Part shown: positions 234-42,758 of the stretch, one piece after another
Layout of the letters: each line of letters begins with the position of its first letter
Numbering within the stretch: position 1 is the stretch's first letter
Origin: Catajapyx aquilonaris
Taxonomy: Eukaryota
Length of the DNA: 42,758 nucleotides
Direction of reading: 5' to 3'
Assembly: GCA_000934665.2 (NCBI GenBank)
Contig: JYFJ02003376.1
Span: 1 to 42,758 of the forward strand
Position numbers and translations under genes: made by a program
The notes under the pieces: model-generated
What the model saw: only the letters and a program-made list of their open reading frames with translations
Told to the model about the DNA's origin: nothing
Databases searched by the model: none

Positions 234-3090
234 ACAAGCCGAACACTGGACTACGGTCGATCGTTGTCTATCGGTGCAGTGGTGCCAAACTGCCAAGTCC
301 GTGGACGTTTAGAAAGCAAAATAATTTCAGTTTTTTAACCTTTTGATGACGGCGGAGTTTTTGAGCCATTGCCTTACCCCAGGGCCTGAGTTCTTTTTCC
401 CCCTTTTCCGGAAATTTGATGAAGAGTGATATTAATGAATAATAATCCGCGGACTGCCCGGATTACCCGGATTACCTATCGTTACCTGAGGGGGGCAGAG
501 GTCAAGTCATAAAATTCCGACCTCACCGATTTTCTTGAAATTTGGTGCAAAAGGGATGAAAAACGCACCTCTGTATCTCTGTATCTTTTGCAGGCCGATG
601 AATGGTCCAAGCACTGGCATCCATAACCCGTCACCTCCACTACAAGCAGAAATCCTGAGTCTCTTGTGTCTATTGCCTCAGAAACGTGTGAAACAGTTAC
701 ATTTTCATTGAAATGATATCAGTTCGTCTAAATCCGTCCATATGCTGGGTACTTTTCTTACCTACACCTTTCTACGTCTCAGGGTAGTCCAGCAGGACGC
801 TGGGCGAGTTCAATCTTCACTCTGTATGTCACTTAATCTTCGTTGCATTAAGCATCGACATGCATTGTTTAGCTCAGAAATCAGCAACGCAGAACAACAT
901 ACCGATCTGTCCGAGGCATATAGACATTGCCTGTTGTTCCACGAGGCACACGAGCCGACGATGAGATAAAAGCTTGCCTCAAGTCTTCTTATCTTTGGAT
1001 TCCTGTCATCAAATTCCATCTCTCTACGAACATGAGTGCCTGAGACACTTGGTGAATACTGCTCACAGGAATTTGCACGTGACCTGTTGAAATATATTAG
1101 GAAATGGCCAGTTTAGAACTGATGCCCTATAGGAAATGTTGACATGGGATTGATCGGTACAAAGGTGTCCTCTGTCGATGAATTAAAATTTAAGGTCTCT
1201 CCCAATATCTGCCTCAACTACCAGAGACACAGTTGGTTGTGAGAGAGAGCAATATTATAGCTCAGAAAAACAACGCCGTCAATCTTATGAACGCACAACT
1301 CCTCAACCAACTACCTGGTCCTTTCCACTGTTACTGGTCTGTGGACACAGTCCCAGACGAGGCCCAGGTTAAGGTGTATTGCAAAGGTCCAAATCAATGA
1401 GTCACTCCTATGGAAAAGTATTTCATAACCCGAGCAACGCCGGGTATCCTGCTAGTCGTTAATATTATGACGTGCGTATATAGGCAGACACATTGTTATA
1501 GAATGATGTAGTGAAATAGACTCGAACACTTGCTAATAACCTTGAAAATGAAGGGCATGACCAGCTTTTAAGAGGGATTAAAAAGAGAAGTGTTCGACTT
1601 GATAACCTTCTGCTTGATAATATTTATTACAACATTCCAGGCGGACCCTCCCGATCGTTTGGATGGACTGGTAACAACAAGCCGATATTCAGCCGTGCAG
1701 TTGCTTTCGCAGGACAGATTTTATTAACAATGTTGACAACTTTGGTGTGGACTCCCGAACATTGAACTGGATTTGTGGTTATTTGGGTTAATTTTGGTTA
1801 ATTGTTCCCGTCATGCGGGAATGTGGGGAAAAATTATTATATATAGGCTATTATTGTGTGATAAACTCGAGCAATAAAAGAGAGAGAAAAAGAAGTTCGT
1901 TTAGGTACAGTGAGTGTTTTTTGTGCAAAGTTGGTACCCATGCAGGAAGGTTCGAGGGGGAGAAGTTGGGCTTTGTTTACTCCAGCAACCACTTTTGAAG
2001 AGAAAAGGTACAATGGTGGGCATAGCGGTCTGGAAATAGCGATCGGTTTCAACATGTAATTTATTAGCACTTTAATGCACTGATTCACAGTCCATTGAAC
2101 ATGTGGGTGACCCTAAAGTCTGGACACATAGGTAATAATGTATACCATTGAACATCACATGTTAATATTGACTTATATGCTTTCCATGCAATAAAATGTG
2201 GCAATTCACTTTGAATGGTGCAGTGCTGGTAGCAATGATGGAATAGTATTATATCCCAACTAGCGCACCCGTAGCCAAAATTTGGCAAAACCTTATCAGG
2301 CCCCATCAAGGCCTGGCCCAGCTGGCTCCTGTAAATGGGTTCTAACTACAATTAGATCCAGAGATCAGGGACCACAGTATATTTTCTCACTTCAATGCAT
2401 ACGACCGGCTCCCCGACTGAACCGAACAATAGACGGACAAACAGGCATTGAATGGGAACGATGCCAGAAAAAGAAATCCAAAAGAAAAACAGGAGGCGAA
2501 CATGAGCGCGTGACGGATACCAGCCCATCCACTTGGCTTCAGGAGAAGGCCCAAGGGGGTAATCACGGTAATGTACTCCGGTGTACACCTGGGAGTGGTA
2601 CTCCCTGGTACTCCTCAGGCACCTCACTCTTTATTACTCCGTGGTACTCCTTGAATTTGGTACTCCAGTGTACACTTTTCAGTCGAGTGATTACCCCCTT
2701 GAGAAGGCCACCTCACAGTGGTTGTCCTCATGCTGAAGGAAGGGGTCGAGGTGGAGGTCAAGGGCTGGAGTGATTGGACCCCGCTTCTCTATGCACCATT
2801 GAATGGCCACCTAAAGTTGGTCCATATTTGGGACTCATAGTGACAAGGTTTTGTCAGTTTGCATTTACTTCGAGCGTTATACCATATAATACCGGGAGTG
2901 TCACAAAGAGTTGATTCGGTTCCTCAAAAATATTTTTTCAATTTGATGTAATACTCGTACTTCTTTGAATATAAAACGGAAAAGAAATTTGACTTCATTT
3001 CCTTTCACAGGAACAGATTCTGAAGCAATACCCTGTCAAGTGGTGAAAGTTTTGGAAGAAGCAGTGGAAGCATAAGGTAACTTATATTAT

Positions 3091-4056: not shown

Positions 4057-4316
4057 ATGGACAGTTCAGTGGCAATACATTAGCACCAGAAGTCTCAAGT
4101 AAGATGGTACTTACACGACAGTAGTGCAAAGCAGATGTGTGCTGGAAAGCTATGGTTTTCATCTGTGATTTTTGACATTCATTATCTGCATATGTAAACA
4201 AAGTTGTATTTATCAGAGAGCTGATTATATTTCGGGTTCAATGTACACTTTTTAAAATTATAAATATTGCTATCACTACTGCATGTTTTACAGCGTGTTT
4301 GAGCATGGTTGTCAGC

Positions 4317-8280: not shown

Positions 8281-9348
8281 TGGATCAAAAAGCACTTTAC
8301 ACTCGATGTAGGAACAAGGAAAAGGGGGATTATTATAGTCGTTGTGACTAGAAACATCTAACATTATTGTGCAATTTGTTTACATAACTAGAGTTAACAC
8401 ACTGCCAAGTACCATATCCCTCACATAAATGACGTTCTGAACACTCCTGCCACTCTCAGGGTCGTACGAGAGGTAGTGGTACTACATGCACCTAGATTAT
8501 GACTCACCCCGGACAATGCGGCTGATGATAGATAGTTGTAATTGCGTTGGTTCCTTCCCTAACTAACTAACTGACTAACAACCAAACAAACAGCCCTGAC
8601 TGACCAACTAACTGACTGATTGACTGACTCACAAAAACATACCTTATTTATAACCATAACATACAAACAAACAAACAAGCAAAGGTACATTCTGCCACTT
8701 TCGTCATGTGAATGGGTTACACAATATTTCCCACAGTTTTTTTGAGCATATGTTGTGGCGAATAGTTTGGTCTACGCTGGTTACAAATGACCCACAGATG
8801 GCGTAACGCCTGATAAACATGACCCCCCCCCCCCCACCACTTAAAAAAAAAACTAAGGTCATGTAACAAAGTGCTGACGCCCACAATAATGACGCCATAA
8901 AATCCATTAAAAATAGGACTTGTTTGTAGCACATCTGACTTGTGAGCATATGTTATTAGCATCAATATTTCTCCATTTGTTTTTCTCTTATTATAAAACG
9001 CAAAGTCTGTTTGCTTGTGTCATGTTATATTAATTCCATATACCCGATATACCCATTTTCAAGCATTTGGCGTCATTTCATACTCACTAAATTTGTTTGT
9101 ATATTTTATACCCATCTTTATTATCAAAGACGATGTTTGTTTGGTTGTTTGTCCATTTTATTTCCATTACATACCCATTTCGTATCTATTTTATACTACT
9201 GTAATTTCATTTGTTTGCCTATTTTATACCAATTTATAAGTTCGTTCGTTCGTTTGTTTGTCCAGGTCTGGTCACCATGGCAACATGCGGGTATTAAAAT
9301 TTGACGGCAGAGATTCAGTAGTATCTATAACTTTTAAATATCCGGTAA

Positions 9349-16342: not shown

Positions 16343-19300
16343 TTATTCTCCGGTCATCATCTCCATGAACTCTGTGGGAAGAGAGCATTATTTGTAAGAT
16401 TGTAACAATGCCATATGTACTGTGTCTGCGACGTACCGTCAAAGTCGACGGTGCCTGAACCGTCACTGTCGATTTCCTCGATCATGGCGTCCAGGTCAGA
16501 GTCGGTCAGCTGGTCATCCAGCTCACGCATGATCTCACGGAGACACGAGGTAGGGATGAAACCGTTTCCTGTCAATAAAGGGCAATCAGAGTTATTGTTA
16601 TGAAAGAGGTCAAAGGTCGTACAGCTATAAAGACAGCTGCTTGATACTCGTCAAAATTTAAGGTTCAAAAATCCAGCAATTCAACCCCCGTCCCCCATTC
16701 TGGATTGTTCCCTTATGGGCAGAGCAACACCCTCCAAAAGTGACTACGGTGACGTTACCCTAAGCCTAAAATAATTAGAGAATCGATCTGTAATTACATT
16801 GAATATCGATATATTAGCAACAGGTCGATATCGATATTCAATACGAGTCAGGATTGAATATCGATATCGACCTGTTGCTAATTGGATATCGCATCGTCTC
16901 GTCTCCCTGAATGAATATAGATATTGCGTTATCGACAATGCCATCGATATTCAATATCGACTGGGTGCATATCGAAAATCTAAATATCGAGTTGTCGTAT
17001 TTGAATATCGATATTGATATGTTGCTAATTGTATATCGATATTGTCTCGTCTCGATGAATGAATATCGATATGCCTTATCGACATTGATATCGATATGGG
17101 TGTATACGAAAATCGATATATCGACTGGCATTTGAATATCGATATCGACCTGCCGCTAATTGGATATCGATATCGTCTCGTGTCAGCAATGAATATCGAT
17201 ATTGCCCTATCGACATTGATATCGATATTCAATATCGACATTGATATCGATATTCAATATCGACTGGATGTGTATCGAAAATCGATATATCATATTGTAC
17301 CATGTGAATATCATATCGAAAATCGATATATCATATTGTACCATGTGAATATCATATCGAAAATCGATATATCATATTGTACCATGTGAATATCATATCG
17401 AAAATCGATATATCATATTGTACCATGTGAATATCATATCGAAAATCGATATATCATATTGTACCATGTGAATATCATATCGAAAATTGATATATCATAT
17501 TGTACCATGTGAATATCATATCGACATAATTATCAATTCATGAATATCGATATTGAATGTGCATATCAACAAACCCGCAACAAACCAACCGATAAAGATA
17601 CTTGGATATGAATCGTTTCACATTTGCACATTAGAACATGTCGATTTTCGATGAATATCGATCTAATGGACAAAAATAGGCCTGTTGTTAACAGTTGTGA
17701 TGTATGACCTTCTTTGTCGTAGAGACGGAAGGCTTCCTTCAACTCCTTGGCCATTCCTTCCGCGTCCTCCTCCATCATGAACTTAGCGGCAAGTTGGCAA
17801 AACTCGTCGAACTCAAGCTCGCCCGAACCTATACGGGTACAACATCAGATTAGAACTAATTTAGGTGAAAATTAAACGCGATTAATTATTATACCATCAG
17901 CGTCCACTTCCTCGATGAGTTCTCTGAGGATCTTGTCGTTGAAGGCCTGACCCATCAGCCTGAGGATGGTGGCCACCATGTCGGTGGAGATGGAGCCCTT
18001 CTTGTCACGATCGAAGCTGTCGAAGGCCTTGCGCAGCACTGTAAACAAGCGAAGGCATCAGTACACATCATAATGTACCTACAGAGCGGTCCGTACATTG
18101 ACGGGACACCCTGTATACCGACCATATCTGAACACATTTGAAGACACTTGCAAAGTGGTCCCAGAACCTTACAAGCAATGTGCTCCGAGTTGTCCATAAG
18201 TTCGTTGCATGAACAATCATAGTAACAGTAAGGTAGCAGACCTGAAGCTCAAATTAGCCTCCATGTCATGATGAGGAGGCTTATGTGAACTTCAGGTATG
18301 CCAACAAAATAATGATTACAAACATTTGTTTTTTAATTTGCCACATTTGATTATTATTGCACCTTTGTCGTAAATAAGCAATTTTTAGTGTTATGCAAAG
18401 ATATGGATAACTCCCAAAATATTTTTCTAGCGGCTATAGGCTTATATCCTTGTTTTGTCTCGGATAAAAGTAATGGGTGTTGGGAGAATGTTTTTTGGGA
18501 AAAGTGCCACGAACTGCTCCTCAAGCTGGCACTTAGCTGGCACGAAGCAACTCTCGCCATCTTGCGGGTTTCTCCCGAATTTTGTGACGACAAGTTCGTT
18601 CTATTAGTTACAAAAATGAAGTGCAATGCACACCCTTTAGCCTACATGTATAACTGCTTAAAAATTGTGTGACATCAAGTTGTCAAGTCTTGATTTGTAT
18701 ACTGATGATGTGGAGCCAATGACTCGGTCAAATTTTAGTTTTGATGCCTTTAACTATATTTATAAAACTGGGAACGTGGTTCATGCTCATTAGTTCAACT
18801 GCATGTGTTTGGTTAGATCGTGTCTACCAGCACCGACACATGAGGTCTTTTGCTATTATAATAGCAATTGGTCTGAATAATGCGGGTGGGGAATGGTGTC
18901 TAAATAATATTTGGCAACCCTGTGTTTATGCCTACTTGCGATCTGCTCCTTATCCAGTTCGTCCTGCAACACAGAAAAGCAAAAAGCAGTTCATCAGCAC
19001 CGGTGATTTACACCATGAAGTGCAAGGAGCAATTGTATGAAAACTCAGAGTTCATACAATAGGTCCTTAAGTTTCCAATTATTTCAACCTGTGTTAGGCA
19101 CATATGAGCTAACACAGATTAAAATAATTGGGAAAACAAAATGCCAGCAATTATACAGTCACAACGAAATAAAACCTGACTATAACGGAATCCTTTTTGC
19201 AAAAATTTAATTAAATTAAATTGCAAAAGTATGCTAAAATAATTTCCATTATGCGCGACAGAAATAAAGCAAACATCTTGGTCCTGGTCCGTAATGAGGA

Positions 19301-25528: not shown

Positions 25529-27803
25529 TTACTCTCCAGTCATCATCTCCATGAACTCTGTAATCAGATAAAAATGTTATCAGAACAGGTCGGTTTAGAG
25601 TAGGTTCACACTGACGTCGTTTGTCGTTAGGTCGATGCTGTTGGCGTCATGGCTTCGAACATTTATACATTAATTAGGCCCTAATTAATATACGAAAACT
25701 TACCACGTGGTAAGCTGGACAAACAAACAAACTTTGCATTTTGTTTGTTCTTTGTTTGTCCAGGTTTTGGTTAACTCTATTAAAATAGTATCGATGAACT
25801 AATGGAGAAGTTCCTTTCATTACTTTCGATATTTGAGTATCCAGATCGATTTTCTGACAAGATATGGGAATATAAAGTACGTATCGATAATTAGATATCA
25901 GATATGATGAATGGCATATCGATAATATTAGATAACGTGAATGAACATATCGATAATATTAGATATTATGGATGGACATATCGATAATATTAGATATTAT
26001 GGATGGACATATCGATAATATTAGATAACGTGAATGAACATATCGATAATATTAGATGTTATGGATGGACATATCGATAATATTAGATAACGTGAATGAG
26101 CATTTCGATACGGTAATATTCGATATTATGAATGAGCATTTCGATACGGTAATATTCGATATTATGAATGAGCATATCGATTATATTAGATATTATGAAT
26201 GGACATATCGATAATATTAGTTAACGTGAATGAGCATATCGATAATGTTAGATATTATGAATGAGAATATCGATAATATTAGATATTATGAATGAGAATA
26301 TCGATAATATTAGATATTATGAATGAGCATATCGATAAATTTTAAATCGATTTTTGACTGGCATAATTGCAGGTCGATTTTGTATCAATGTGAATCAATA
26401 TATCGATAAGTTGCGTGATCGACCAACAGCAACGACCCCAAAGACCAAGAACAGCAACTCCCGTGTGAACACCCTAAATTCCGAAGACGTACCATCGAAG
26501 TCAACGGTTCCGGAGCCATCACTGTCAATCTCCTCGATCATTGCGTCCAGATCTGAGTTTGTAAGCTGATCGTCCAGCTCACGCATGATCTCACGGAGAC
26601 ACGAAGTTGGAATATAGCCATTTCCTGAGAGGGGGAGAGATAAGAAGGTACCATATTTCATACCCGTTGCCACACACTTGTTTACAGATTGCTAGATGGC
26701 ACCTCTCAAGTTTAATGAGAGTGGTTTGGATCCAGTTCAAATTGGCACGCCCAACAGTGCGTTTACACTATGAGATTCTTGCAGGTAAAAATAATGAGAT
26801 CAAAGTACCTTCTTTGTCGTAGAGACGGAAGGCTTCCTTCAACTCCTTGGCCATTGCTTCAGCATCGTCCTCCATCATGAACTTAGCGGCCAGAGTACAG
26901 AACTCATCGAACTCAAGCTGACCGGATCCTGAAAAATTTGACGAAATATTTATTTAATTTGTATAATTTTGCATAAATTTTTTTCCAGGTGATTTACCGT
27001 CAGCGTCCACTTCCTCGATGAGTTCTCTGAGGATCTTGTCGTTGAAGGCCTGACCCATCAGCCTGAGGATGGTGGCCACCATGTCGGTGGAAATGGAGCC
27101 CTTCTTGTCACGATCGAAGCTGTCGAAGGCCTTGCGCAGCACTGCAACAATACGGACATGTCTTGTTGTCACACACTATTAATTTATATTTAATTATTGC
27201 CTCTAACTACATTGGCATGATTCAGTAAGTAGAAAGACTCGAAATTGTCACAATGGACAGTTTAATAAAATGATGACAAAATTGTTGTGGATCAGGAGTG
27301 TTGATATTGACAATTTGTTGAACAATTGACAATAATTGACAATTAGTTGAACAATTGACAATAATAATTGAAGGGTCGCCCCGAATAATGTTGTAAGTGA
27401 TTATTTATTGGCAATTTTTGATCAATTTAACACTTGACTATTGACAATATATTTGTTGAACAATTGAACTGTTGAACAATTGAAATGTTGACAATAATAA
27501 TTGTTCAATATTGTTCAGCAAATTGTTATATTGTGAGACGGGCACAATTTTGGTGAAACTGGAGTGTTAATAATTTTTGACCATTGACCAATTGTGAGAT
27601 GGACACAATTGTTGTGAAACTGATTTGACACTACTATAATTGTCCAATTTGACAATATGAGTGACATGCATTGACAGTTTGAACAATTTTCAGTAATAGT
27701 GTACTCACTGGCGATCTGGTCCTTGTCAAGCTCCTCCTGCAAAAACAAGATGATGATTAATTAGTGCCATATGATCTACCCTTAACAACAGTGGACGTAC
27801 CAT
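25529..27803 (-). CDS. TpnC: Troponin C copy 4 (151 aa); complement(join(25529-25557,26493-26624,26809-26928,26998-27141,27709-27736,27801-27803))
   Basis: [25 protein letters not shown]...[29 protein letters not shown]...GNGYIPTSC...[20 protein letters not shown]. The first coding exon is ATG only (ATG|GTACGT). Confidence 0.94.
25880..26340. repeat. 31-bp minisatellite (ATATCGATAATATTAGATATTATGAATGAGC-like, ~14 units) in TnC4 intron 5
   Basis: ATCGATA occurs at 25918, 25949, 25980 and onward. Confidence 0.93.
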
Positions 27804-30770: not shown

Positions 30771-32747
30771 CTACATGCGCCTGGCTATAAATCGGATTCT
30801 TGTGGAAAATGTTACGTACACAAGTTCCAATACAAGTGCGACGGACGAACAGGACAGTCCGAGGTACCAGATCTTGAACATGGCCGAGAGTTTGGACACG
30901 GTCAGATGCTCGTCCAACAAACGGAGTGTCTCGTCTTGCTCTTCTTCGGCCCGGATATCCTTCAGACAGGACAGGAAGTTCATGTAGATCTCATCCTGCA
31001 CCATCTTGTCCACCAAATTGGTCTCGAGAAACACCCGCATCGCTGCATAAACCAGACGGTACAGAGCCAGGTTGCCTCTGGACACACCGACGTGGTTGTA
31101 CTTCGGAAACTTCTTCTCATCGCAGTACTTCAACTTCAACTCACCTCCGCTGGTTGTGTACCGGTACACCTCGCGCTCCATCAGGACGTTGATGCCGATG
31201 CAGACCACGTTCGTCTTGTGTGTCTTGTCATAGCAGCTTCGTATACTCTCGCACATCACCATCCGACGCATCATGGTGTGCAACACCGGGTCATCAGCCA
31301 TTGCCGCGTACTTCTGCAACACCAGGTAGTTCAAAGAGTTGGCTTCCACTGCCCAATTGGACGTCACAATTTCGTGCACCGTTGTTGGTACAAACTCCTT
31401 ACTAGGCCAGGTCAGAAACGAGACCAGTTTGGCCTTGTAGCCGACAGTGACCACGGTCACGAAGAAGAGGAAGGACGTGATCAGCGACAATGGGGCAGGT
31501 GACCCGAACGCGATTGGCTGGTCCAACAATGGACGAAACACGAGGGCAGCAGATCTGGCGATTGTCACATGTGACTCTGTCTGTCCGAGCCATCTATGTG
31601 AGGAGATTGGTACTGCAGCTTCGATCTGTGCCTCAGGTTGTCCAGGATCGGTCAGAAAATATCGGACGACAAGAGTGAACATGAACATGGTCGGAATGAA
31701 CAGTGACCAGAATATGATCGGGTACGGCTTGAATATGACTGTCCAGGTCACGACCCCGCGGGGCACTCGGGTCACTCCCAGACCATACGCGTAGATGTAC
31801 GGCTGTGCTGTCAGTTGGTACCGGTACGTTTCTTCGTCCGGAAATGAGACTGGGACAAGGTCAGTGTTGTTTCGGACAAGGTGTCCGACAAAACCTTCCC
31901 AAGATCCATTCGGATTGCGAAAGTTGATCTCGATGCTTTTGATGGACACCTCAATGTTGACCAGTGTTGCCCCCAGAAGTTCCTCAAAGACGACCTCACT
32001 TCTTTCGTGTAAGGTCAACGAGGTCTCGCCCATGACCTTCTTCCTTTGTCTGGCTCCAACAATGTCGATGTCACCATAGTAGCCCAACCGCACTGTTCTT
32101 CCGTTTGCGCTCCGAATTTTGGGGTCAAAAAAGGTCAGGGGGTCAATCTGGGTCATGAGGTCAAACTCACGGATGGGGTGAAACAGGTCATATCCATGTC
32201 TACCACAGTAGAAGCAGACTGTGCGCATCCGGATATGACCTGGTTGGTAAGTGGTGATGACCTTCTTCAAGATCGAGTGGGCAGGCGGATGAAAGGTCAT
32301 GACCTCTTCTAATGTCGGGTCAAGTGGGAGGTGGATCAGGAAAAGGTGCAGGGCTGGGTCTACTTTGACCTGAGATGCTGTTTGCATAAGGACACGTGGG
32401 AATGCGGATGAACTAGTGGGCAGGAGGAGGTGAAGGGTGCAGGTCAATCCAGGCCAAAGGTCAGATAAGAGGTCAGGCGAAACGGAGGTCCAGTCAAGGT
32501 CAGGCACATCATGGTGACCAATAGACACTACTGATGGGCCATACCTTTGTTGATGATGCGACATGACCTTTCCAAACGGGACAGTGTCCAGGTCACTCGA
32601 GGTCACCAACGAGCACGACTGCTTTTGCAGGATAGCCTGCACCAGTCGGGCCAACAGTACTTGCTCCTCTGGGTCAGAGGTCACCGATATATTGCTTCCA
32701 GTCACAATAGGAAGGAGCACCAGAAACAAGTGTCCGAACTTCTCCAT
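30771..32747 (-). CDS. Intronless divergent ionotropic receptor (IR, iGluR-related chemoreceptor), 658 aa
   Basis: Single long ORF with first ATG at 32747. It has a signal peptide (MEKFGHLFLVLLPIVTG), an S1-lobe motif NGSWEGFVGHLVRNNTDL, a first TM VIFKPYPIIFWSLFIPTM, a gating-helix homologue VGYKAKLVSFLT (cf. iGluR SYTANLAAFLT), an S2 end FLETNLVDKM, and a last TM LTVSKLSAMFKIWYLGLSCSSVALVLE. Confidence 0.9.
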   Translation of the reverse strand: MEKFGHLFLVLLPIVTGSNISVTSDPEEQVLLARLVQAILQKQSCSLVTSSDLDTVPFGKVMSHHQQRYGPSVVSIGHHDVPDLDWTSVSPDLLSDLWPGLTCTLHLLLPTSSSAFPRVLMQTASQVKVDPALHLFLIHLPLDPTLEEVMTFHPPAHSILKKVITTYQPGHIRMRTVCFYCGRHGYDLFHPIREFDLMTQIDPLTFFDPKIRSANGRTVRLGYYGDIDIVGARQRKKVMGETSLTLHERSEVVFEELLGATLVNIEVSIKSIEINFRNPNGSWEGFVGHLVRNNTDLVPVSFPDEETYRYQLTAQPYIYAYGLGVTRVPRGVVTWTVIFKPYPIIFWSLFIPTMFMFTLVVRYFLTDPGQPEAQIEAAVPISSHRWLGQTESHVTIARSAALVFRPLLDQPIAFGSPAPLSLITSFLFFVTVVTVGYKAKLVSFLTWPSKEFVPTTVHEIVTSNWAVEANSLNYLVLQKYAAMADDPVLHTMMRRMVMCESIRSCYDKTHKTNVVCIGINVLMEREVYRYTTSGGELKLKYCDEKKFPKYNHVGVSRGNLALYRLVYAAMRVFLETNLVDKMVQDEIYMNFLSCLKDIRAEEEQDETLRLLDEHLTVSKLSAMFKIWYLGLSCSSVALVLELVYVTFSTRIRFIARRM

Positions 32748-33569
32748 GTTGAACACCCAACTGTACTACGCACAACATTTTAAGGACATAATTACCCACA
32801 ATTATTTTGGAGGTAATGAGCGCTTAATGACATACAGTAAAAATGTAATAATATATAATTGTCTCAAATTAAGAGCCCGTTTTAGCCTGTGCGAGATTAG
32901 ATCACACTAAAGAGCTTTAATTGTTCGTGAATGAGTTATGCGTAAATTGACCCGTGTTTATAATGACAATTATGCCGTACTAATACGATAATTGCAAGTC
33001 ATTATCTAATTACGCCACAATATTGCCGCCATATTAGGCAATAACATAAATTATTCCGGGACTGTCCACGTAGTACCGTATCCCTCACATAAATGGAATA
33101 TCCTGGACAGCCAGAGGCACAGACTAAGCCAATTCTATACGATCAGATAATTTTTTTCGTCTGTTTTTAATTCCGACAAATTGACAATAATTGCTTTTCA
33201 CAAGGCCTGTATGACTTCTTGGAATGAAAGTTGCATAACCGGTTTTACTCTAGCAACAAGTATTCCTAGAAATCCGGGCATTTCGCAGATACTGACCTTT
33301 GTTAAATGTTAATGAATAAGGAAATGCAGTAGTAATATAGGTTTGAGAAACTTTAATGCTGGAATGAAAATAATTGACTTTTTAAACCGTACATAATTAT
33401 AAGAGTGCTGAGATTTTCATTATTTCCAATCCTGTTTCTTTCCAACGCTTCTTTCTTATATATTTTCTTCTTCAAGTTCAAAGTCCCTGAATCACTTAAC
33501 AAGTTGTGAGTTGTCCAAGGTTGTTGCATGCAGCACACACCTCTTTTCATTGCCTGAAGAGTCGCAGCC

Positions 33570-36292
33570 ATGTCCAGATCGTGTCTGATCGCTCTCCTCT
33601 TGCTGACCCTCGTTGGGGTCAATTTGGGGTCACCTATCCCGGACGATGTCCAGTCATCTCTGTCCATCGCTGACCTTCTGACTCAGAGGCAGAATGAACT
33701 GGCAGCATCTCGCAATTATCAACAGGTAATAATTAGGAAGACACTAATTGCTCTAAGTACTACTACCTTGAGACAAGTTTTTTCTAAGTACTGTGCATGT
33801 TTGCAAATTGCAATTACTGCTTACACGATAATACACTGGCACATATTCAACATTAAAAAAAAATTAAGTGATAACTACAGTAGGAGTAAGCTAACTTATG
33901 GGTTTCGGGAGGTGGCTTGTGTCCTTCGCAACCATATTAGCCCCGCCCCCTGCTGAGTGTAACCTGGAAATTATAACGATTGGTGGGGAAATATTATTTA
34001 ATTTAATTTAGTTTAAAAAATTAATAAGCAAATTTAACAAATTGCTAACGATATTCGTGCAGGTGAAAGAGGAATTCTTTGCTGCCTGCGGGACTGGAGA
34101 TTTGGAAGGGGTCAAGAGGTCGGTGTCAAAGGTCAAAGGTGGCGTGCAGGCCATGCTGGAGTGGCACAACAAGTGGCGCAATCCAGGGATGCACGTGGCT
34201 GCCTGGAGAGGTCACACGGAGGTGGTCAATTACCTCCTGAGCCAAGGATGGCCAGTTGACCAGAAGGGAAGGGAAGAGGCGACCCCTCTTGACTGGGCGG
34301 CCAAGGGAGGTCATCTGGACACCTCCCAGGCTCTCATCCAGGCTGGGGCAAAGGTCACGGCCAGAGACGAGCTAGGGAACGAGCCTGTCCACTGGGCAGC
34401 AGAAGAGGGTCACGTCCAGGTGGTGGACATGCTGGTGAAGGAAGGAGCCGGAGTGGAGGTCAAAGGTTGGAAAGGTCGCACCCCTCTGCATCTGGCCTCC
34501 ATGTACGGGCACCGGGAGCTGGTCAAGTTCCTGCTGTCCAAAGGGGCTGACCCAGGGGTCAAGGACGACGATGGTCAAACTCCACTGGATCTGACCATCA
34601 AAGAGCAGGAGTCCAGCGACCAACCTGAAGTGAGTATCATAATAATCGGCTTAGTTAGTTAGTTAGTCAGTTAGTCTGGTAGTTTGTTGGCCCGTTTTGT
34701 CTGTCTGTCTGTCTGCCTGTCTGTCTGTTTGCTTGTTTGTCCGTTTGTTTGTCTTTTAGTATGCGTGTCCTTTTGTTAGTTTTCTTGTCTGTTTGTTAGT
34801 TACTTAATCAGTCAGTCAGTCAGTTAGTTAGTGAGTTAGTTAGGTTGTATGTTTGTCCGGGGTGAGTCATCATCCCACTCAGCCCGGTACGGTAGTACTA
34901 TTACCCCTCGCACGACCCTGAGAATGGCAGAAGAATGCTCCGCCTATGAAAGGGGTGTGGTACTATACCTGATGGCTGGGTTGGGATGATGACTCGCCCT
35001 GGACAAACAAACAAACAGACAAACAAAGCGAAAAAAACTAACGAACAGGCAGACAAATACTCACGTATATTGTTTGTGTTTGTTTGTTTGTTTGTTTGTT
35101 TGTTTGTTTGTTTGTCCGGGTGAGTCATTACCTCAACGCAGCCATCAGGCAGTACCACTACCCCTCGTACTACCATGAGAGTGGCAGGAGGATGCGTCAC
35201 CTATGCGAGGGGTATGGTACTACCTGGCTGAGTTAAGGTGATGACTCAATCCAAACAAACAAACAAATGGACAAACAACTATATAGAAATAAACAAACGG
35301 ACGGACGGACGGACGGACGGACAGACATCCAGTGAGACAGACAGACAGACAAACAAATATTAACTACCAATCCTGACCTACAGATCAAAGCTGCCTTCCT
35401 GCGTGCCTGCACTGAGGGCAACCTGGATGAGGTCAAGGAGGCCGTGTCAAGGTCAGGGGGCATAGGGGCCGCCCTGGGTTGGTTGAACGAGTGGCATAAC
35501 CCTGGGATGCACGTGGCAGCCTGGAGAGGTTACCTGGACGTGGTGACCTACCTTTTGGAAAAGGGTTGGCCTGTTGACCAGCCTGGAAGGGGCGGGAGGA
35601 CACCACTATTTTGGGCAGCCAAGGGAGGTCATCTGGCCACATGCAAGGTGCTGATTCAGAAGGGGGCAAAGGTCGGGGCCAGAGACGATTTCGGTGACCA
35701 ACCAGTGCACTGGGCTGTCGAAGGTGGTCAGCTGCCAGCCCTTGACCTCCTGTTGGGTGAAGGGTCAGAGGTCAACTCGGTCGGATGGAAGGGACGGACT
35801 CCACTGCATCTGGCAGCCAAGGACGGAAGGGCTGACCTCGTCCAGCTTCTGGTGTCAAAGGGCGGTGACCCAGGGGTCAAGGACGCAGAAGGTCACACTC
35901 CAGTGGACGTCGCGAAGGAGACGGGAAAACGAGATGTTCTGGCCATTTTGGAAGTCAGATCTTCGCAATTTTAAACTTTGGAAATTCTTTGTATCAAAAA
36001 TATTTTGCAATAAAAATTTCAGCCCTGAATACAATTTATTATTTAATGTTTAGCGATTGGTTAATGATATACCATAAACCAAAATAATTGTCAAAAATAT
36101 TAGTACCGATGTGGCTATAGGCACTGCAAACAATGACAACAATATTATTTTCTCTTGGGGTGTGATTGTTATGATGACGTTAATTCCAATCATGAATAAT
36201 TAGTTTTTTTAAATGGAAATGTGTGACCCATCTGTTAGGTGAAATATTATTTCCTTCTTCCGGTTTTGTTGTTTCAGACCACAACGTGGTGA
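33570..36292 (+). CDS. Predicted secreted ankyrin-repeat protein A (~435 aa, 2 ANK modules); join(33570-33725,34063-34629,35384-35953,36278-36292)
   Basis: Exon 1 encodes a signal peptide (MSRSCLIALLLLTLVGVNLG-SPIP). Exons 2 and 3 each encode ~190 aa with G-x-TPLH-x-A-x-x-x-G-H ankyrin repeats. All introns are phase 0 GT-AG. The short last exon (TTTW*) is followed by AATAAA at 36345 and is less certain. Confidence 0.85.
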
Positions 36293-36469
36293 CGCTGTGG
36301 TCATACTTCCTGTGTTGTGTCCTGGTTTGCTGGTTATTATACGGAATAAATTAACCGTATAAAACTGTCCAATAAATTAATAGCAAAATGGCAATAATAA
36401 ATCGTATAAAAATAAAATAAAATTGCGTACACTTGCAAAAACAAATTGAATGCAATTACACTAAATTAA

Positions 36470-36740
36470 ATGCAGAAAATTGCAATAAATTCTTTGCAGA
36501 AGATTGCAATAAATTATTTGCAGACAATTGCAATAAATTATTTGCAAAAAAATGCAATAAATTATTTGCAGAACAATACAATAAATCAAACACAAAGTTC
36601 AAATAAATTCACTGCATAAAACCTCTCTACAGTATAATAATAGGAAAATGCAATAAATTAATAACAGCAAATGCAAAAAAATAATTGCAAAAAATTGCAA
36701 TAAAGTCATTGCATAAAATATATTATTGCAATAAATTAAG
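36470..36740. repeat. Degenerate ~23-bp tandem repeat (TTGCAATAAATTATTTGCAGA)
   Basis: Visible periodic GCAATAAA. Confidence 0.7.
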
Positions 36741-37293
36741 TCGTACTTGCAAAAATGCAGTATGTGTACTGTACGAGGCAGCCTTTACTGCAGTAAGCCT
36801 ATGTTTTTTCTGCAAATTATTATTTACCTTTCCAATATACTGCTGATGTTTACAACTACTTGCAAAATATGCGTCAAAGACAACACCACAAATTAATCAA
36901 AACGTCATCGTTACGAGGAATCCTGTAGTTCCCCCTGCTAACCAGTTTAGCAACTGCGCAAATTCTAAGAAATCGCAAGGGGGAAAAAAACTACACCTTG
37001 ATCATATTGTACGTGACCACATCTTTCCTGTACTACTCGATATGACGCCGTATCGCCACTTCAAAGGTCACTTAGTAAGCAACGAGTGTCCTTCCAGAGC
37101 TGGACCATTATTCAGGAGGTCAGGTGGGGGGCAAGGTCACCGCTGCTTCCATAGACAAAAACAGGTTTGCGCAGGTGTCTGGCACGTGATCTTCATTTTA
37201 AACTAGCGGCTTCTTAGTAGCAGCTTCTTCGGTTGGATTGTTAATATTTTGACCTCTGCCGGTGACCAGTTCAACAGCCGGGCAGTGCCAAGC

Positions 37294-40200
37294 ATGGCCG
37301 GATCTGGATTCCTCCTGATCTTACTGGCCTCCGGGTGTTTGGTGGTACAGGGTGTCACGTATGTTGCTGACAGGAGAAGATCTGCGAGGCAACTGGCCGT
37401 CGAGGGCACCAGGCAACACAAGCACCATTCGGTCATACCCTTCGTCATCAGGGAGTACCAGGATGAAGAAGTGAGTCTGTTCATGATCGCATGTGTTTAC
37501 ATCCATACCTGTGGAGACATGCCACAAAAATATTGGAGCCACCTTCGAGAAAACGCAAAATATTATCGCCAATATTAGTGTGCTTTTGCCTATGTGTTTG
37601 AAGGAAAGAGGCAAAGCCACTATGTATAACAAATATAATATAATACAGTGTAATATCACCAAATATTATAATATAATATATAGTGTAATATCACCAAATA
37701 TTATAATATAATATATAGTGTAATATCACCGGCAAATATTATATAATATGTAGTGTAATATCACCAAATATCATAATATAATATATAGTGTAATATCACC
37801 AAATATTATAATGAAAAATTTAAACTACTAATGAAAAGTAACTTATAATGTAACAATGTAATGATGTAATCATACCAGATATCAATGTAATCAAATAATA
37901 ACGCTGAATAAAATATAACAATAATACAACGCAATATAATAAAACACCAATCCCATATATTTAATGCAATAATAATACAGCACAATATAACAAGTAAATA
38001 AATACCGTCTGAATGACAGTTATTAATTTTTGTTAATGTATATATTTGTCATTTATTCTACTGTAAGTGATATATTAGTATTTTATTAGTTTTATTATAT
38101 ATATTCGTTTGCATTGATTATTTATTTACCTGTATTAGTATTTATTTCCTATTGCTTATTATTTCTTATCGCGTATTATTTATATTTTAGTAGCTTGCTA
38201 TATATTATTTCATAATTAGCTATCATTTATTATCAGCTATATATTTTCTAGGGTAATTAGCATCAATCATTAGTTATTGACGTCAATTATTATTAGTTAT
38301 GAATAGTTATTCGGTTATTAATATAATATTTTTCCAGGCGGAGAGATTTCTGCAAGCTTGCCAAGTTGGAGATTTGCAAACTGTGAAGAGATTGGCTGAG
38401 AGAAGGGGCCTGCTGGCCATGGTAGGGGTCAAGGATGGCTTCGGGGACAGCTGCATCCACCTGGCGGCCAAGGAGGGTCACCAGCAGATCTTGAGCCACC
38501 TTCTGACCTCGGGTTGGCCCGTGGACCAGAAGGGCTACTGGGGAGGGACACCTCTGCACAAGGCCAGCAAGGGAGGTCACCTGTTCGCTGCCACGCTTCT
38601 GGTCAGGTCAGGGGCCAGGGTCAGGTCGAGGGACGAGGGAGGAGACGGGCCTCTGCACGTGGCCGCCATCGCGGGTCACGTGAGGGTCGTCGACCTCCTG
38701 CTGAGAGAGGGGGCAAGGGTCGACGACCGGGGCGAGTTTGACCGTACCCCTCTGCATTGGGCGGCCCTCAATGGTCGGCTTGACCTGACCCAGCTCCTGT
38801 TGGCATCCGGAGCTGACCGGACCTTAGTTGACCAGTTCGGGAAGGTGCCTCGAGATTGGGCTGTCATTTGGGGTCACTCCCACGTGGTCGTTCTCCTGGA
38901 GGCCAGTCCTGGAGTAGTGTTGGCTTCGACCCCAGCACCCGCCATCACCACCAGGCCTCCAACTACCACCCGTGCTCCAACTACCACCCGTTCTGCTCCA
39001 ACTACTACCACCCGTGCTCCTGTAGTGCCATCGTCCACGCAAATTCCGGTAGAGCCAGCCGCCAACAGTGAGGAACAAGTAAGCATTGTTAGCACTGACA
39101 CGCTGGTCACCCACTGAATCCTCCTATAACGCAAGTCACGATAACTGTAGCGCTGGCTCTCATAATATAAATAAAGGTATCAATATACTGTACGTAATGA
39201 ATAACCAATAACAAGTAACTTACAAAACCAATAACTATTATTATTATTTATTGGTTATTATTTAGGGGTTATAATAATAATAACCCCTAAATAATAACCA
39301 CCAAATAATAACTAATAAATAATCTACAAATAACTCATATGTAATAAGTAACTAAAGTACGGTAATTAATAACAAGCAAATAAGTTATGTAATACGTAAA
39401 TAACTGATAAAATACATAACTAATAATCACCAATAACTGATAAAATACATAACTAATAATCACCAATAACTGATAAAATACATAACTAATAATCACCAAT
39501 AACTGATAAAATACATAACGAATAATCACCAATAACTAATAAAATACATAACTAATAATAAACAATAACTAATGAAGAATCCATAACTAATTTAATAGTT
39601 AATAACTACAGTAATAATAAGCAATAACTAATAAATAATACATAACAAATTTATTAGTAATAACTAATAATAAGCGATAACTAATAATAAGCAATAACTA
39701 ATAAAGAATCCATGATTAATTTATTAGTAATAAGACTAATAACTAATAATAAACAATAACAAATGAATAATAAATAATGAATAACTAGTGAATAATGAAT
39801 AATGTCATTTGTATTTTCACCAGGCGAAGAAGGATTGGTTGTCTGCTTGCCGAACAGGTGACATGGATGTGGTGACCAAGACCATGGAGACCTATGGCCT
39901 GAGGGCTGTCCGGAGGTGGAAGAACGAGTGGAAGAACGCGTGCATGATCATCGCTGCTTGGAATGGTCGAGAGGCTGTGGTCACCTACCTGCTGAGCCAA
40001 GGATGGCCCGTGGACCAGCGGGGAAGGGACGGTCGGACTGCCCTTCACTGGGCGGCCAAAGGCGGCCACATGTCCATGGTCAGGGCGCTGGTTGAAGGGG
40101 CAGGGGCGGACCCAAGGGCCAAGGACGAGTACGGAGAGGAGCCGGTGCACTGGGGGGCAGAAGATGGACACGAGCAGGTGGTCAGGTACTTTCTGAAGGA

Positions 40201-42167
40201 AAAGGACGTCCCGGTTGATGCCCGGGGATTGAAGGAGAGGACACCCCTCCAAAAGGCAGCGGAACACGGACGGGTGGAGGTGGCCCGGCTGCTCCTGGCC
40301 CTAGGGGCAGACCCACACGCCAAGGACCAGGAAGGAAAGACGCCTCTGGACTGGGCTAAAGAGAAGGGACACGAAACACTCGTCAAACTTCTGGAGGTAC
40401 AGTATGCACACGAGTTATCTGTATGGCTTTTGGGTGACCGCACCAGTATACTGTCCGTCTTGTGCGCCGCAAGCCGATGAACGTTATTGTGGCTTTGCCA
40501 ATATGCCATGGATGCAACCCGTTGCCATTTTTACATGAATTATTCATAATAATGGTTAGTTCTCACCACACATTGAGTTTGACCCCTGTTTGACCCGCAG
40601 GTCAAGGACAACTTTTTGCGTGGGTGCGGAGAGGGCAGCTTAGAACTGGTGGCTGAGAGTGTGAACGAGATGGGAGGTGTGGAGGGGATGCTGGGTTGGA
40701 AGAACAAGTGGGACAACCCGGGTTTGCACATTGCTGGGTGGAAAGGTCACGATCAGGTCATATCGTACCTGTTGAGTCAAGGTTGGCCTCCGAACCACAG
40801 GGGCAGGGAGGGAAAGACGGCTCTGTTCTGGACGGTCAAGGGAGGTCACCTGACCCCGTCCGTGACCCTGATTCGAGCAGGGGCAGAGGTCAGGGCCAAG
40901 GACGACTTTGAGAACGAGCCGATGCACTGGGCAGCCGAGGAAGGCCAGGTCCAGGCTGCTGACCTCCTGCTGACCGAAGGGGCAGAGGTCAACGCCAAGG
41001 GGTGGAAAGGAAGGACTCCTCTGCACATGGCGGTCAAGGAAGGAAGGGTGGAGATGGTCAAGTTTCTGCTGTCAAAAGGAGCTGACGCCGGGGTCAGGGA
41101 CAGGGAAGGGTTGACCCCGCTGGACTGGGCCAAACGGAACGAAGAAGACGACATCGTCCCTCTTCTTGAGGTCAGGTTAGGGTCATTCACACAGCACCGA
41201 GCAATGGTTCAATTTCCTCTCATTCACAGAGCTCTTCGGCACGTCTGGTGGCTGCCTTACCACTGTCCAGTTCTTCAAGGGTCGGAGGTCATGGAAATGC
41301 ATACTTGAAGGATGACCAGGTGTATGTCTCTAATTGCTCATTGCCCAGGGTGTTGACCAGGACAACTCATGTAGAGAATTGGCTTCAGTCTGTATCTCTG
41401 TTTGTCCGGGACGAGTCTATAGGTGCATGTAGTACTACTACCCCTCGCACGACCCTAAGAGTGGCAGTAGTGTGCTGAGAGGATGTGTCATCTATGTGAG
41501 GGTTGTGGTACTACGTCCACAGTCGGGGAGGCCAGGAAGGGGCTGTCAAAATTTTTGCAAAAGAATAACTCATTCTCATATAAATCTACAGTTTAATAAT
41601 AACTAATATAACTTACGATGACTCATATACAATAATTATCTCATATTTATAATGATTGATATATCATCTCATATTTATTATTATACATTATAAATATGGG
41701 TTATTATATCAATAATTGACATAAATAATTATTGCAGTTACAGTTATTATGATGGGTAATTACATCAATTAGTATGACGGGTTACATTTTCAATTATAAA
41801 TAATTATGGGTTGTAGTAATAATTGAAAATGTAACCCATAATTATTTATAATTGAATAATAATTGATATAATTACCCATCATAAATAACTCTTATAAGAG
41901 CCCATGGTCATAACTAATATAACTCAAAACTCATACTTATAATAACTGATAAGTAATATAATTATCATAATGACTATATAATAAACTCACTGTAACTAAT
42001 ATGATAAATAATAATAACTGATAATAATAACTTTGCAGGATTTGAGGACAGCAGAGCCAATCGGATTGACCATAACGGATGCTCCGTACTATTATTATTA
42101 CCAGAGGACTGACAGTACACTCGATTCAACAGAGGGGACAACAACAATGGTTTATAGACTCACCTAA
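37294..42167 (+). CDS. Predicted secreted ankyrin-repeat protein B (~729 aa, 3 ANK modules plus Pro/Thr linker); join(37294-37470,38338-39078,39824-40396,40601-41170,42039-42167)
   Basis: Signal peptide MAGSGFLLILLASGCLVVQG followed by a basic RRRSAR motif. Three phase-0 ankyrin exons, with a TTRAP/TTRPP mucin-like linker at the end of exon 2. The terminal exon DLRTAEP...YYYYY...YRLT* is followed by AATAAA at 42197. Confidence 0.85.
37630..37812. repeat. ~32-bp AT-rich tandem repeat
   Basis: AGTGTAATATCACCAAATATTATAAT repeated about 5 times. Confidence 0.8.
39399..39560. repeat. 33-bp tandem repeat
   Basis: AATAACTGATAAAATACATAACTAATAATCACC repeated about 5 times. Confidence 0.85.
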
Positions 42168-42758
42168 AGACAACAATAATGCTTGAAGGGGCATGCAATA
42201 AATTATGTTAAACTCTGCATGGTGATGGCAGAGTTGGTTTAGTATAATATTATTTGCAGAGTGTTTTTAGCAGAAGCATTTTTAGGTGAAGGTAACACTA
42301 TTGTTGTTCGTGATGTTGTTAAAAACTTGGCATGATATGCACCTTCTGGAGTGACATCCTGCTGATCACTATAATTATGTAGATGGTGATTTTGTCTCGG
42401 AGTGTTCGTTGTAAAGCTTTAAACAGAGTCGCGGATACACCCTACGACACTTACATCGCTATGTTATTAACACAGTCAAATATACCATGTAAGACAACAG
42501 GTTATACAACGCATGTGCATGTTCTCAAATAAACAGAGCTAATATGTATAAAAAACTCGGACATTTATTACATACACCCTGTACTTATCAGCATTATCAC
42601 TTATCAATGATCATGTTTTCTACCTATTTCAAGTGGAAAAGGCTTCCATTTATATTTATTTATCTTAATCTATAAATGAGGAGAGTTTGTTTGTTTGTCC
42701 CTTATAGAAATCCAGGGGAAAGCCCCTACACCGCCTTAAATTAGCATATCGGGGGTTA

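What the first reader, a model, noticed from the sequence alone, without database searches (positions are those of the whole stretch)
33570..42167. Two predicted secreted ankyrin-repeat proteins assembled from one-exon, phase-0 modules
Seen: both genes start with a separate signal-peptide exon and have no evident TM segment. They carry 2 and 3 copies of a ~190-aa cassette (capping helix F-x-x-AC-x-x-G-D/N/S plus ~5 near-consensus ANK repeats), each exactly one phase 0-0 exon. Established: animal ankyrin-repeat proteins are overwhelmingly intracellular, and symmetric exons can be duplicated or skipped without frameshift. Inference: a lineage-specific family of extracellular, multivalent, DARPin-like binding proteins whose valency changes by exon duplication and possibly by alternative splicing. 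This is the best candidate for an undescribed system in the window.
Basis: partly seen in the sequence, partly recalled or inferred. Interest (0 to 1): 0.8.

Follow-up and report, generated by a model that had tools for sequence, protein, structure and literature searches.

The report
Secreted-type tandem ankyrin-domain genes, arthropod
Two neighbouring arthropod genes put a secretion signal in front of two or three self-contained, tryptophan-rich ankyrin-repeat domains, an unusual but not unprecedented design that points to secreted multivalent binding proteins whose target is unknown.

Summary
The window has five homologous ~190-aa ankyrin (ANK) modules, 40-58% identical, each one phase 0-0 exon, behind two signal-peptide-like first exons. 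There is no other hydrophobic segment.

Spliced contigs of one public run join gene 1's signal exon to module 1 and module 2 (33725/34063, 34629/35384). In gene 2 they join modules 2 and 3.

It moves gene 2's stop to 42043-42045. Gene 2's signal exon and two of its junctions had no cover.

Each module folds as a DARPin-sized ANK domain (pLDDT 95). The usual binding face is largely conserved between modules and carries a family-specific Trp stripe. Trp is 3.5% of residues, against 0.8% in 389 fetched ANK proteins. This fits multivalent binding of one ligand class better than a diversified repertoire.

Module 1 of gene 2 ends in a mucin-like Thr/Pro linker.

I found no close relative, but every database search was swamped by generic ANK proteins. 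A family of 20 predicted secreted ANK proteins is published for stink-bug salivary glands, so the class is not new. Secretion is inferred only; SignalP could not be run.

The parts
33308..33569 (+). Gene 1 5' UTR (at least 262 nt) with five short upstream ORFs (2-10 codons) and an in-frame stop at 33555-33557
   Evidence: The contig (record 2) starts at 33308. Upstream ATGs are listed.
33570..33725 (+). Gene 1 exon 1, coding part: 52 codons, made of a signal-peptide-like N-terminus and a 32-residue spacer. Phase 0 donor.
   Evidence: The junction to 34063 is seen in a contig at word depth 85.
34063..34629 (+). Gene 1 ANK module 1 (189 aa), one phase 0-0 exon
   Evidence: AlphaFold2 pLDDT 95.2.
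35384..35974 (+). Gene 1 ANK module 2 (196 aa) plus TAA stop. The donor-like GT at 35955, homologous to the other modules' exon ends, is read through.
   Evidence: (junction 34629/35384)
37294..37470 (+). Gene 2 predicted exon 1: 59 codons, made of a signal-peptide-like N-terminus and a spacer with an RRRSAR basic cluster. It has a strong GTGAGT donor. It is prediction only.
   Evidence: It lies in a GC island (0.44-0.56 over 36900-37499) within DNA of 0.19-0.29 GC. Depth is 0 in its bin.
38338..38901 (+). Gene 2 ANK module 1, the most divergent (40-44% to the others)
   Evidence: A contig covers 38479-38986.
38902..39078 (+). Thr/Pro-rich mucin-like linker in the same exon: 59 aa with 14 T, 6 S and 11 P, including 18-nt tandem repeats
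39824..40396 (+). Gene 2 ANK module 2 (191 aa), phase 0-0 exon
   Evidence: The contig runs from 39858 on, and the 40396/40601 junction is seen. It carries 4 differences from the window, 3 synonymous and 1 Arg-to-Ser.
40601..41170 (+). Gene 2 ANK module 3 (190 aa), phase 0-0 exon
41230..41321 (+). It encodes a Ser-rich tail and shifts the frame of the last exon.
   Evidence: Joints 41170/41230 and 41321/42039 with GT..AG ends in the 1459-nt contig. Translation.
42039..42296 (+). Gene 2 last exon. The CDS ends with TGA at 42043-42045 in the observed transcript, and the rest is 3' UTR (at least to 42296).
2703..2828 (+). Decayed 42-aa fragment of a family-type module (profile positions 114-155) in a short open stretch, stop to stop
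   Evidence: tblastn gave 49% identity over 51 aa. hmmsearch gave 37 bits. The frames are shown.

Best explanation
Two tandem arthropod genes (437 aa, and about 719 aa if the predicted 5' exons are right) encode soluble proteins that enter the secretory pathway through a cleavable N-terminal signal peptide carried on its own exon.

The body is two or three autonomous ANK domains. Each is an N-cap, four full repeats and a C-cap, and each is encoded by one symmetric phase-0 exon. Connectors are short, except for one O-glycosylation-type Thr/Pro linker.

Four of the five domains keep the same concave-face residues. These include a ladder of Trp at positions that in ordinary ANK proteins touch the ligand. 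The proteins therefore most likely act outside the producing cell, in body fluid, in a matrix or in a secretion. There they would work as multivalent binders or cross-linkers of one class of ligand (a repeated peptide or glycan).

The copy number of the domain changed by exon duplication.

Shown: the exon structure, the gene 1 splicing, the fold, the conserved Trp-rich face and the absence of a TM segment. Inferred: cleavage and secretion, the exposure of the Trp residues, multivalent binding and the ligand.
For: - One RNA-derived contig runs from the 5' UTR through the signal exon, module 1 and module 2 with 0 mismatches and GT..AG joints.
- An upstream in-frame stop fixes the start at ATG 33570.
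- Both N-termini have a 14-18-residue uncharged core and (-3,-1)-rule sites: after residue 16 in gene 1 and after residue 20 (V-Q-G|V) in gene 2. No later window reaches KD19 above 1.41, and there is no KDEL-like end.
- The two signal exons do not align at all, yet both keep the signal-like character.
- A Thr/Pro linker with 18-nt repeats follows module 1 of gene 2.
- The module model has pLDDT 95.2. Its best structural matches are designed ANK binders of the same size, TM 0.86-0.87.
- Trp is conserved at repeat 1 positions 3 and 13 and at repeats 2 and 3 position 10 in 4 of 5 modules. It is conserved at repeat 4 position 2 and repeat 5 position 10 in 3 of 5.
- Trp makes up 3.5% of module residues, against 0.83% in 389 fetched ANK proteins, of which only 2 reach 3%. 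Trp follows the TPLH-type motif in 11 of 19 family matches, against 147 of 3295 (4.5%) in the background.
- The invariant Cys sits at a buried framework position of the N-cap, so it need not be a free surface thiol (the register is recalled).
- Precedent: 20 SignalP-positive, TMHMM-negative ANK proteins in stink-bug salivary glands (PMC8207144).
Against: - No signal-peptide predictor could be run. My test is a hydropathy and (-3,-1) heuristic.
- Gene 2's n-region has no basic residue.
- Gene 1's 5' UTR holds five upstream ATGs.
- There are no N-x-S/T sequons in 1116 mature residues. About 2.2 are expected, P(0) about 0.10 by shuffling. This is neutral to slightly odd for secreted proteins.
- Gene 2's signal exon and its joints to module 1 and from module 1 to module 2 are predictions only.
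- Module 1 of gene 2 lacks most of the Trp stripe.
- Tissue, ligand and presence in any secretion are all unknown.
Confidence: 0.55

Rival explanations
1. The proteins are secreted effectors aimed at another organism. They would be made in a salivary, venom or digestive gland and act on or inside prey, host or plant cells, as proposed for hemipteran salivary ANK proteins and for microbial ANK effectors. They would not be endogenous extracellular binders.
For: The only animal precedent found is salivary. ANK proteins form Group #2 (20 genes) of the predicted stink-bug salivary secretome, and its authors propose plant-manipulating effectors (PMC8207144). ANK domains normally work in a cytosolic setting. 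Of the 240 best database ANK hits, 81 start with an export-type hydrophobic segment; most are unnamed metagenome proteins with lipoprotein-like Cys (crude threshold).
Against: Nothing is known about tissue, and the organism's feeding mode is unknown. The largely conserved binding face is not what an arms-race effector family usually shows. The mucin-like linker suits a matrix or body-fluid protein equally well.
Confidence: 0.2
2. The proteins are not secreted. The hydrophobic N-termini would be uncleaved signal anchors, ER or Golgi retention devices, or functionally irrelevant. The ANK domains would then work in the cytosol or in an organelle, like nearly all animal ANK proteins.
For: Animal ANK proteins are overwhelmingly intracellular (established knowledge). 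No predictor was run. Gene 2's n-region lacks a basic residue. There are no N-glycosylation sequons, and each module carries one or two unpaired Cys.
Against: The hydrophobic cores are 14-18 residues, short for a TM helix, and are followed by small residues at -1/-3. Both paralogues keep the feature although the exons no longer align. The Thr/Pro tandem-repeat linker is typical of extracellular proteins. No retention signal was found.
Confidence: 0.2
3. Gene 2 is mis-modelled. Modules 2-3 (with or without module 1) may form a transcript that lacks the predicted signal exon. Alternatively, gene 1's last module may splice from its donor-like site at 35954 into 38338, making one five-module gene.
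For: No listed joint or shown contig piece covers 37294-37470, 37470/38338 or 39078/39824. The contig for modules 2-3 stops 34 nt inside exon 3. The module 1 contig is a separate record. The GAA|GTCAGA site at the end of gene 1's module 2 is homologous to the donor used after gene 2's module 3.
Against: The predicted exon 1 sits in a GC island typical of exons here. It has an ATG, an open 59-codon frame and a consensus GTGAGT donor in phase 0. No joint leaving 35954 was listed. Exons 2 and 3 have good acceptors and phase-0 ends.
Confidence: 0.2
4. This is the first reader's version: a DARPin-like repertoire in which each module has a different specificity, and valency and specificity are varied by exon duplication and exon skipping.
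For: The exons are symmetric phase 0-0. The modules have diverged to 40-58% identity. Module 1 of gene 2 has a different set of face residues.
Against: At the six positions randomised in designed ANK libraries, the commonest residue holds 0.60 of cells. At the other positions it holds 0.71. This count used repeats 1-4 only, with the caps left out. Several face positions are invariant (for example K13-G14 of repeat 2 and R5 of repeat 4). No exon-skipping joint was listed. Only five modules and one relic lie in 42.8 kb.
Confidence: 0.1

Closest known systems
Predicted secretory salivary-gland ANK proteins of the stink bug Halyomorpha halys (OrthoMCL Group #2, 20 genes; PMC8207144)
   Same: They are arthropod ANK-repeat proteins with a predicted N-terminal signal peptide and no TM segment, and they form a multi-gene family. 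Their best database hits also scatter over bacteria, archaea and animals, as mine do.
   Different: I did not compare sequences: their Table S3 is not held. The one H. halys ANK hit in my list is only 29% identical. Their proteins are defined by salivary expression, and the tissue here is unknown. The passages I read do not report a one-exon module design, a Trp stripe or a Thr/Pro linker.
Designed ankyrin repeat proteins (DARPins, N4C/N5C consensus designs)
   Same: Size and fold match: capped stacks of four to five repeats. They are the best structural matches, TM 0.86-0.87 at 36% identity. They also rank high by sequence.
   Different: DARPins are artificial. Their binding positions are randomised, whereas here those positions are largely conserved and Trp-rich. 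The N-cap with its extra short helix and the GWPVDQ loop are specific to this family.
Exported ANK proteins of bacteria (periplasmic or lipoprotein-type and effector ANK proteins)
   Same: The layout is a signal peptide followed almost at once by an ANK N-cap helix. By a crude hydropathy threshold, 81 of the 240 best hits to the modules look like this.
   Different: The window genes have spliceosomal introns and an arthropod context: an IR-type receptor and troponin-C-like genes as neighbours. GC3 resembles the neighbouring IR gene. No bacterial hit shares the family's N-terminal segment; the best per-domain score is 30.6 bits, against 107-127 for the family itself.
Latrotoxins of widow spiders
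   Same: They are arthropod ANK-containing proteins that act outside the producing cell. They appear among the PDB sequence hits.
   Different: From recalled knowledge and the title and abstract of PMC8630228, latrotoxins are proteins of more than 1000 aa with N-terminal pore-forming domains and about 20 ANK repeats. Their lack of a classical signal peptide is recalled only. Here there is a signal-type exon, no non-ANK domain, and separate five-repeat modules.

Membership tests
Ankyrin-repeat superfamily (Pfam Ank clan) | Tandem ~33-residue helix-turn-helix repeats with a TPLH-type motif, detected by the Ank profiles | tested here: met
   All 5 of 5 modules hit Ank, Ank_2, Ank_3, Ank_4 and Ank_5 above the curated cut-offs. 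The helix pairs appear in the model. The Foldseek top hits are all ANK proteins.
Classical secreted soluble proteins | N-terminal signal peptide (n-region, 7-15-residue hydrophobic core, small residues at -3/-1) | tested here: inconclusive
   The heuristic is positive for both genes. SignalP and DeepTMHMM are not available, so cleavage is not shown.
Classical secreted soluble proteins | No TM segment, GPI-type tail or ER-retention signal after the signal peptide | tested here: met
   The maximum KD19 beyond residue 30 is 0.79 for gene 1 and 1.41 for gene 2. The C-termini are neither hydrophobic nor KDEL-like.
Classical secreted soluble proteins | The signal-coding exon is part of the mature mRNA | tested here: met
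   Gene 1: joint 33725/34063 in a 1431-nt contig. Gene 2 had no cover, so this holds for one gene of two.
Classical secreted soluble proteins | The protein is found outside the cell | not testable with these tools
   This needs proteomics or an expression experiment.
Diversified binder repertoire (DARPin-like, VLR-like logic) | Hypervariable ligand-contact positions on a conserved framework, and many copies | tested here: not met
   Contact positions score 0.60 and framework 0.71 for the share of the commonest residue, with Trp, Lys and Arg conserved at contact positions. There are five modules and one relic in the window. The genome-wide count is not testable, because no genome is held.
Hemipteran salivary secretory ANK group (H. 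halys Group #2) | Sequence kinship with that group, and salivary-gland expression | not tested
   The sequences are not in hand (supplement not held). The tissue of run X1 is unknown.
Latrotoxin family | N-terminal helical or pore-forming domains followed by about 20 ANK repeats in one >1000-aa chain | tested here: not met
   No non-ANK domain was found. The modules have five repeats and the proteins are 437 and about 719 aa.

The most novel reading that the evidence does not exclude
An arthropod lineage has turned the cytosolic ankyrin fold into an extracellular, multivalent recognition or matrix protein. Each one-exon domain would present a conserved ladder of exposed tryptophans, spaced one repeat apart. 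That geometry suits binding a periodic polymer such as chitin, another glycan, or a Pro/Thr-rich mucin chain. Valency would be tuned by exon duplication. This would be a new class of animal extracellular binding module, perhaps one instance of a wider habit of this genome of sending cytosolic interaction domains into the secretory pathway. An earlier, unchecked note from this scan, not tested here, describes signal-peptide-bearing SPOP-type genes in the same genome.
Probability: 0.15. Interest if true: 0.75.

Novelty: new variant of a known kind. Interest (0 to 1): 0.45.

Why it matters
ANK repeats are among the commonest intracellular interaction modules, and extracellular use by animals is barely documented. 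Here one gene has transcript support, each exon is one domain, and the groove is conserved and Trp-lined.

This gives a concrete, testable case of a cytosolic scaffold recruited to the secretory pathway. It is also a natural counterpart of engineered multivalent DARPins.

If the ligand proves to be a polymer or a microbial surface, the family would add a new fold to arthropod extracellular recognition. If it proves to be a salivary or venom component, it would extend the ANK-effector theme from microbes and stink bugs to another arthropod lineage.

Tried and rejected
**Searches for relatives.** All were swamped by generic ANK arrays.
- (module 3 of gene 2, longer proteins): 709 hits among 2712 candidates, best 120 listed, identity at most 49% over partial cover.
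- (five-module profile, 103-433 aa): 4166 hits among 8000 scored candidates, best 120 listed, identity at most 43%.
- (profile of the family-specific N-cap plus repeat 1 against 1.84 billion representatives): 78,468 hits. The 150 listed are all proteins of 640-6572 aa with 7-64 matched stretches.
- Re-scoring all 389 fetched proteins per domain gave at most 30.6 bits for the cap profile, against 107-127 for the family. For the whole module it gave at most 120.9 bits among the 240 proteins fetched up to then, against 299-330 for the family.
- So I found no relative. Moderately diverged one- or two-module relatives would rank below the listed rows, so their absence is not shown.
- The ESM Atlas gave only generic ANK clusters.

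**Resources that gave nothing.**
- No whole genome is held, so family size could not be counted.
- No RNA holder is on record. The one run listed (X1, kind unknown) proved to hold spliced contigs.

**Parts without cover.** These were gene 2 exon 1, the first 141 nt of its exon 2, and junctions 37470/38338 and 39078/39824. This is no evidence either way. No exon-skipping joint was listed, but contigs drop rare forms.

**Weak or unresolved analyses.**
- The module tree had 0 of 2 inner branches well supported, so the order of duplications is unresolved.
- Bacterial origin by gene transfer was considered and could not be tested. The best per-domain hits mix a spider mite protein with unnamed database proteins, mostly from metagenome sources, at the same score level. 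GC3 (0.62-0.72) is close to the neighbouring IR gene (0.64).
- The lack of N-glycosylation sequons is not significant.

**Other.**
- Literature: six full-text searches. They found no animal family of this design. 'extracellular ankyrin' occurs in 1 paper (on latrotoxin) and 'secreted ankyrin' with 'extracellular' in 5 (none on animal proteins, by title and abstract start).
- The supplement of PMC8207144 that lists the ANK group is not held.


Full report
**What is there.** Between 33.3 and 42.3 kb the + strand carries GC-rich exons (GC 0.53-0.62) separated by AT-rich, repeat-filled introns (GC 0.23-0.47).

Five long ORFs contain exons bounded by AG and GT: 34063-34629, 35384-35974, 38338-39078, 39824-40396 and 40601-41170. 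Each is a multiple of three in length and begins and ends between codons.

All five translate into ANK-repeat modules. 5 of 5 hit the Pfam Ank families, while 0 of 3 non-ANK exon products hit anything. The modules align end to end with 42 invariant columns and 40-58% pairwise identity. A six-frame scan of the whole window with a module profile finds exactly these five (299-330 bits) plus one 42-aa relic at 2703-2828 (37 bits). Because the modules are copies of one another, the uniform phase 0-0 design is inherited, not five coincidences.

**The first exons.**
- Gene 1 starts at ATG 33570 and gene 2, as predicted, at ATG 37294 (the finding's junction coordinates 33725/34063 and 37470/38338 are right).
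- Both products begin with an uncharged run of 14-18 residues (KD19 2.15 and 2.12). Small residues lie at -3/-1, after residue 16 in gene 1 and after residue 20 in gene 2.
- Nothing beyond residue 30 approaches TM hydrophobicity (0.79 and 1.41), and neither C-terminus is hydrophobic or KDEL-like.
- The two exons share no alignable sequence.
- I could not run SignalP, so this remains a heuristic.

**Transcript evidence.** One public run (X1, kind not on record, 85,611 contigs, 31.8 Mb) holds 0.36 of the sampled words of the stretch. That is about the exonic share. Laid on the window, its contigs are spliced at GT..AG sites, so the run is RNA-derived.

A 1431-nt contig with no mismatch runs 33308-33725, 34063-34629 and 35384-35829. 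This shows that the signal-type exon of gene 1 is joined to both ANK exons. Within that exon an in-frame stop at 33555-33557 precedes the ATG, so the hydrophobic segment is the true N-terminus of the ORF. The 262-nt leader holds five short upstream ORFs.

A 1459-nt contig runs 39858-40396 and 40601-41170. The extra exon shifts the frame, so the ORF ends at TGA 42043-42045 after a short Ser-rich tail.

A third contig covers 38479-38986 inside gene 2's first module. No listed joint or shown piece (8 pieces shown, 27 more not) covers gene 2's first exon, the start of its second exon, or junctions 37470/38338 and 39078/39824. These stay predictions. They are supported only by splice consensus, by phase, and by the GC island at 36900-37499.

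**Anatomy of a module.** Laid on the canonical 33-residue register (numbering recalled from the designed-ANK literature), a module has three parts:
- a degenerate N-cap repeat with a short extra helix;
- four full repeats;
- a C-terminal helix or helix pair.

AlphaFold2 on the five-sequence alignment gives pLDDT 95.2 and pTM 0.89, with exactly this helix pattern. The best structural matches are designed ANK binders of equal size (TM 0.86-0.87, 36% identity). Natural ANK domains such as gankyrin and Varp follow. Sequence search of the PDB gives ankyrin-1/2, DARPins, NOMPC, latrotoxins and TRPA1, that is, generic ANK proteins.

The invariant Cys lies at a buried framework position of the N-cap. 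In gene 2, module 2's last helix runs straight into module 3's cap helix without the usual loop. The modules are therefore separately capped units, not one continuous solenoid. This is read from the sequence; the joined protein could not be modelled.

**The binding face.** At the six positions randomised in designed ANK libraries, the commonest residue holds 0.60 of cells. At the remaining positions it holds 0.71. This count covers repeats 1-4 of five modules, with the caps left out. Several contact positions are invariant.

Trp is strikingly conserved:
- at repeat 1 positions 3 and 13 in 4 of 5 modules;
- at repeats 2 and 3 position 10 in 4 of 5;
- at repeat 4 position 2 and repeat 5 position 10 in 3 of 5.

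It follows the TPLH-type motif in 11 of 19 family matches, against 147 of 3295 in the background. Module 1 of gene 2 is the outlier.

The pattern suggests that most modules bind the same kind of ligand through an aromatic groove. That favours avidity over diversity. The Trp exposure is inferred from the register, because I had no access to model coordinates.

**Other extracellular hints.** Module 1 of gene 2 ends in a 59-residue Thr/Pro/Ser/Ala-rich segment (14 T, 11 P, 6 S) built on 18-nt tandem repeats. This is the look of an O-glycosylated mucin-type spacer. The spacer after gene 2's signal peptide holds a basic cluster that could be a furin-type site (this is inference). There are no N-x-S/T sequons, but only about 2.2 are expected (P(0) about 0.10).

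**Context.**
- The organism is an arthropod. The head-to-head neighbour (30774-32747, minus strand) is a single-exon 658-aa ORF. It had no word-index or Pfam hit, but its nearest ESM Atlas clusters are arthropod ionotropic glutamate-type receptors (score 0.98).
- Upstream lie several troponin-C/calmodulin-like EF-hand exons.
- Earlier notes of this scan on the same genome also call it an arthropod. They describe an array of SPOP-type genes with signal peptides. I did not check these notes, and I treat them as leads only.

**Relatives.** I found no close relative, with the caveats given under Tried and rejected. By a crude hydropathy threshold, 81 of the 240 best hits begin with an export-type hydrophobic segment. 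Most are unnamed metagenome proteins with lipoprotein-like Cys. This shows that signal peptide plus ANK is common in bacteria. It does not establish gene transfer: the genes have introns, host-like GC3 and no shared family-specific segment.

**Literature.** Six full-text searches turned up three relevant papers.
- PMC8207144 (passages read): among 430 SignalP-positive, TMHMM-negative salivary-gland proteins of Halyomorpha halys, the second largest group (20 genes) are ANK proteins of unknown function. Its authors note that such reports are scarce.
- PMC5935387 (table passage): one ANK protein in planthopper saliva, without a signal peptide.
- PMC12911473 (abstract and passages): ANK regions in spittlebug foam proteins.

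Secreted ANK proteins of arthropods are thus on record, but as list entries. None of the passages I read describes the modular exon design, the Trp stripe or the mucin linker.

**Verdict.** The secretion reading is the best-supported one (about 0.55) but rests on heuristics. I rate the find a new variant of a known but poorly studied kind, with interest 0.45. What would raise it is proof of secretion together with a defined ligand for the Trp groove.

Noticed in passing
window 30774-32747 (-): A single-exon 658-aa ORF lies head to head with gene 1; contigs end at 33177 and start at 33308. It found no relative among 8000 word-index candidates and has no Pfam hit. Its nearest ESM Atlas clusters are arthropod ionotropic glutamate-type receptors (score 0.98). 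It is probably a very divergent IR-type chemoreceptor.
   Followed up: partly
window 4312-4632, 10309-10620, 16357-16650, 17566-17844, 26395-26691 (-): Repeated near-identical EF-hand exons (troponin-C/calmodulin-like; Pfam EF-hand hits on the two tested) suggest a tandem array of at least four EF-hand genes upstream of the ANK genes.
   Followed up: partly
window 2703-2828 (+): A 42-aa stretch in a short open frame (stop to stop) matches the family's repeat 3-4 region (49% over 51 aa to gene 1 module 1). It is a decayed module 31 kb upstream, which hints that the family once had another member here.
   Followed up: partly
window 34845-35000, 35104-35247, 41429-41476, 8444-8516: A short interspersed element of about 150 bp has copies in introns of both ANK genes and elsewhere in the window. 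A contig joint between 34874 and 41420 in the laid run is probably due to this repeat.
   Followed up: partly
window 37634-37812 and 39399-39704: AT-rich minisatellites (35-nt and 33-nt units, 5-9 copies) fill much of gene 2's first and second introns.
   Followed up: no
window 42454-42758: Contig word depth is high (about 105) and several loose ends lie at 42684-42689, beyond gene 2's 3' UTR. Another expressed feature probably begins here and runs off the window.
   Followed up: no
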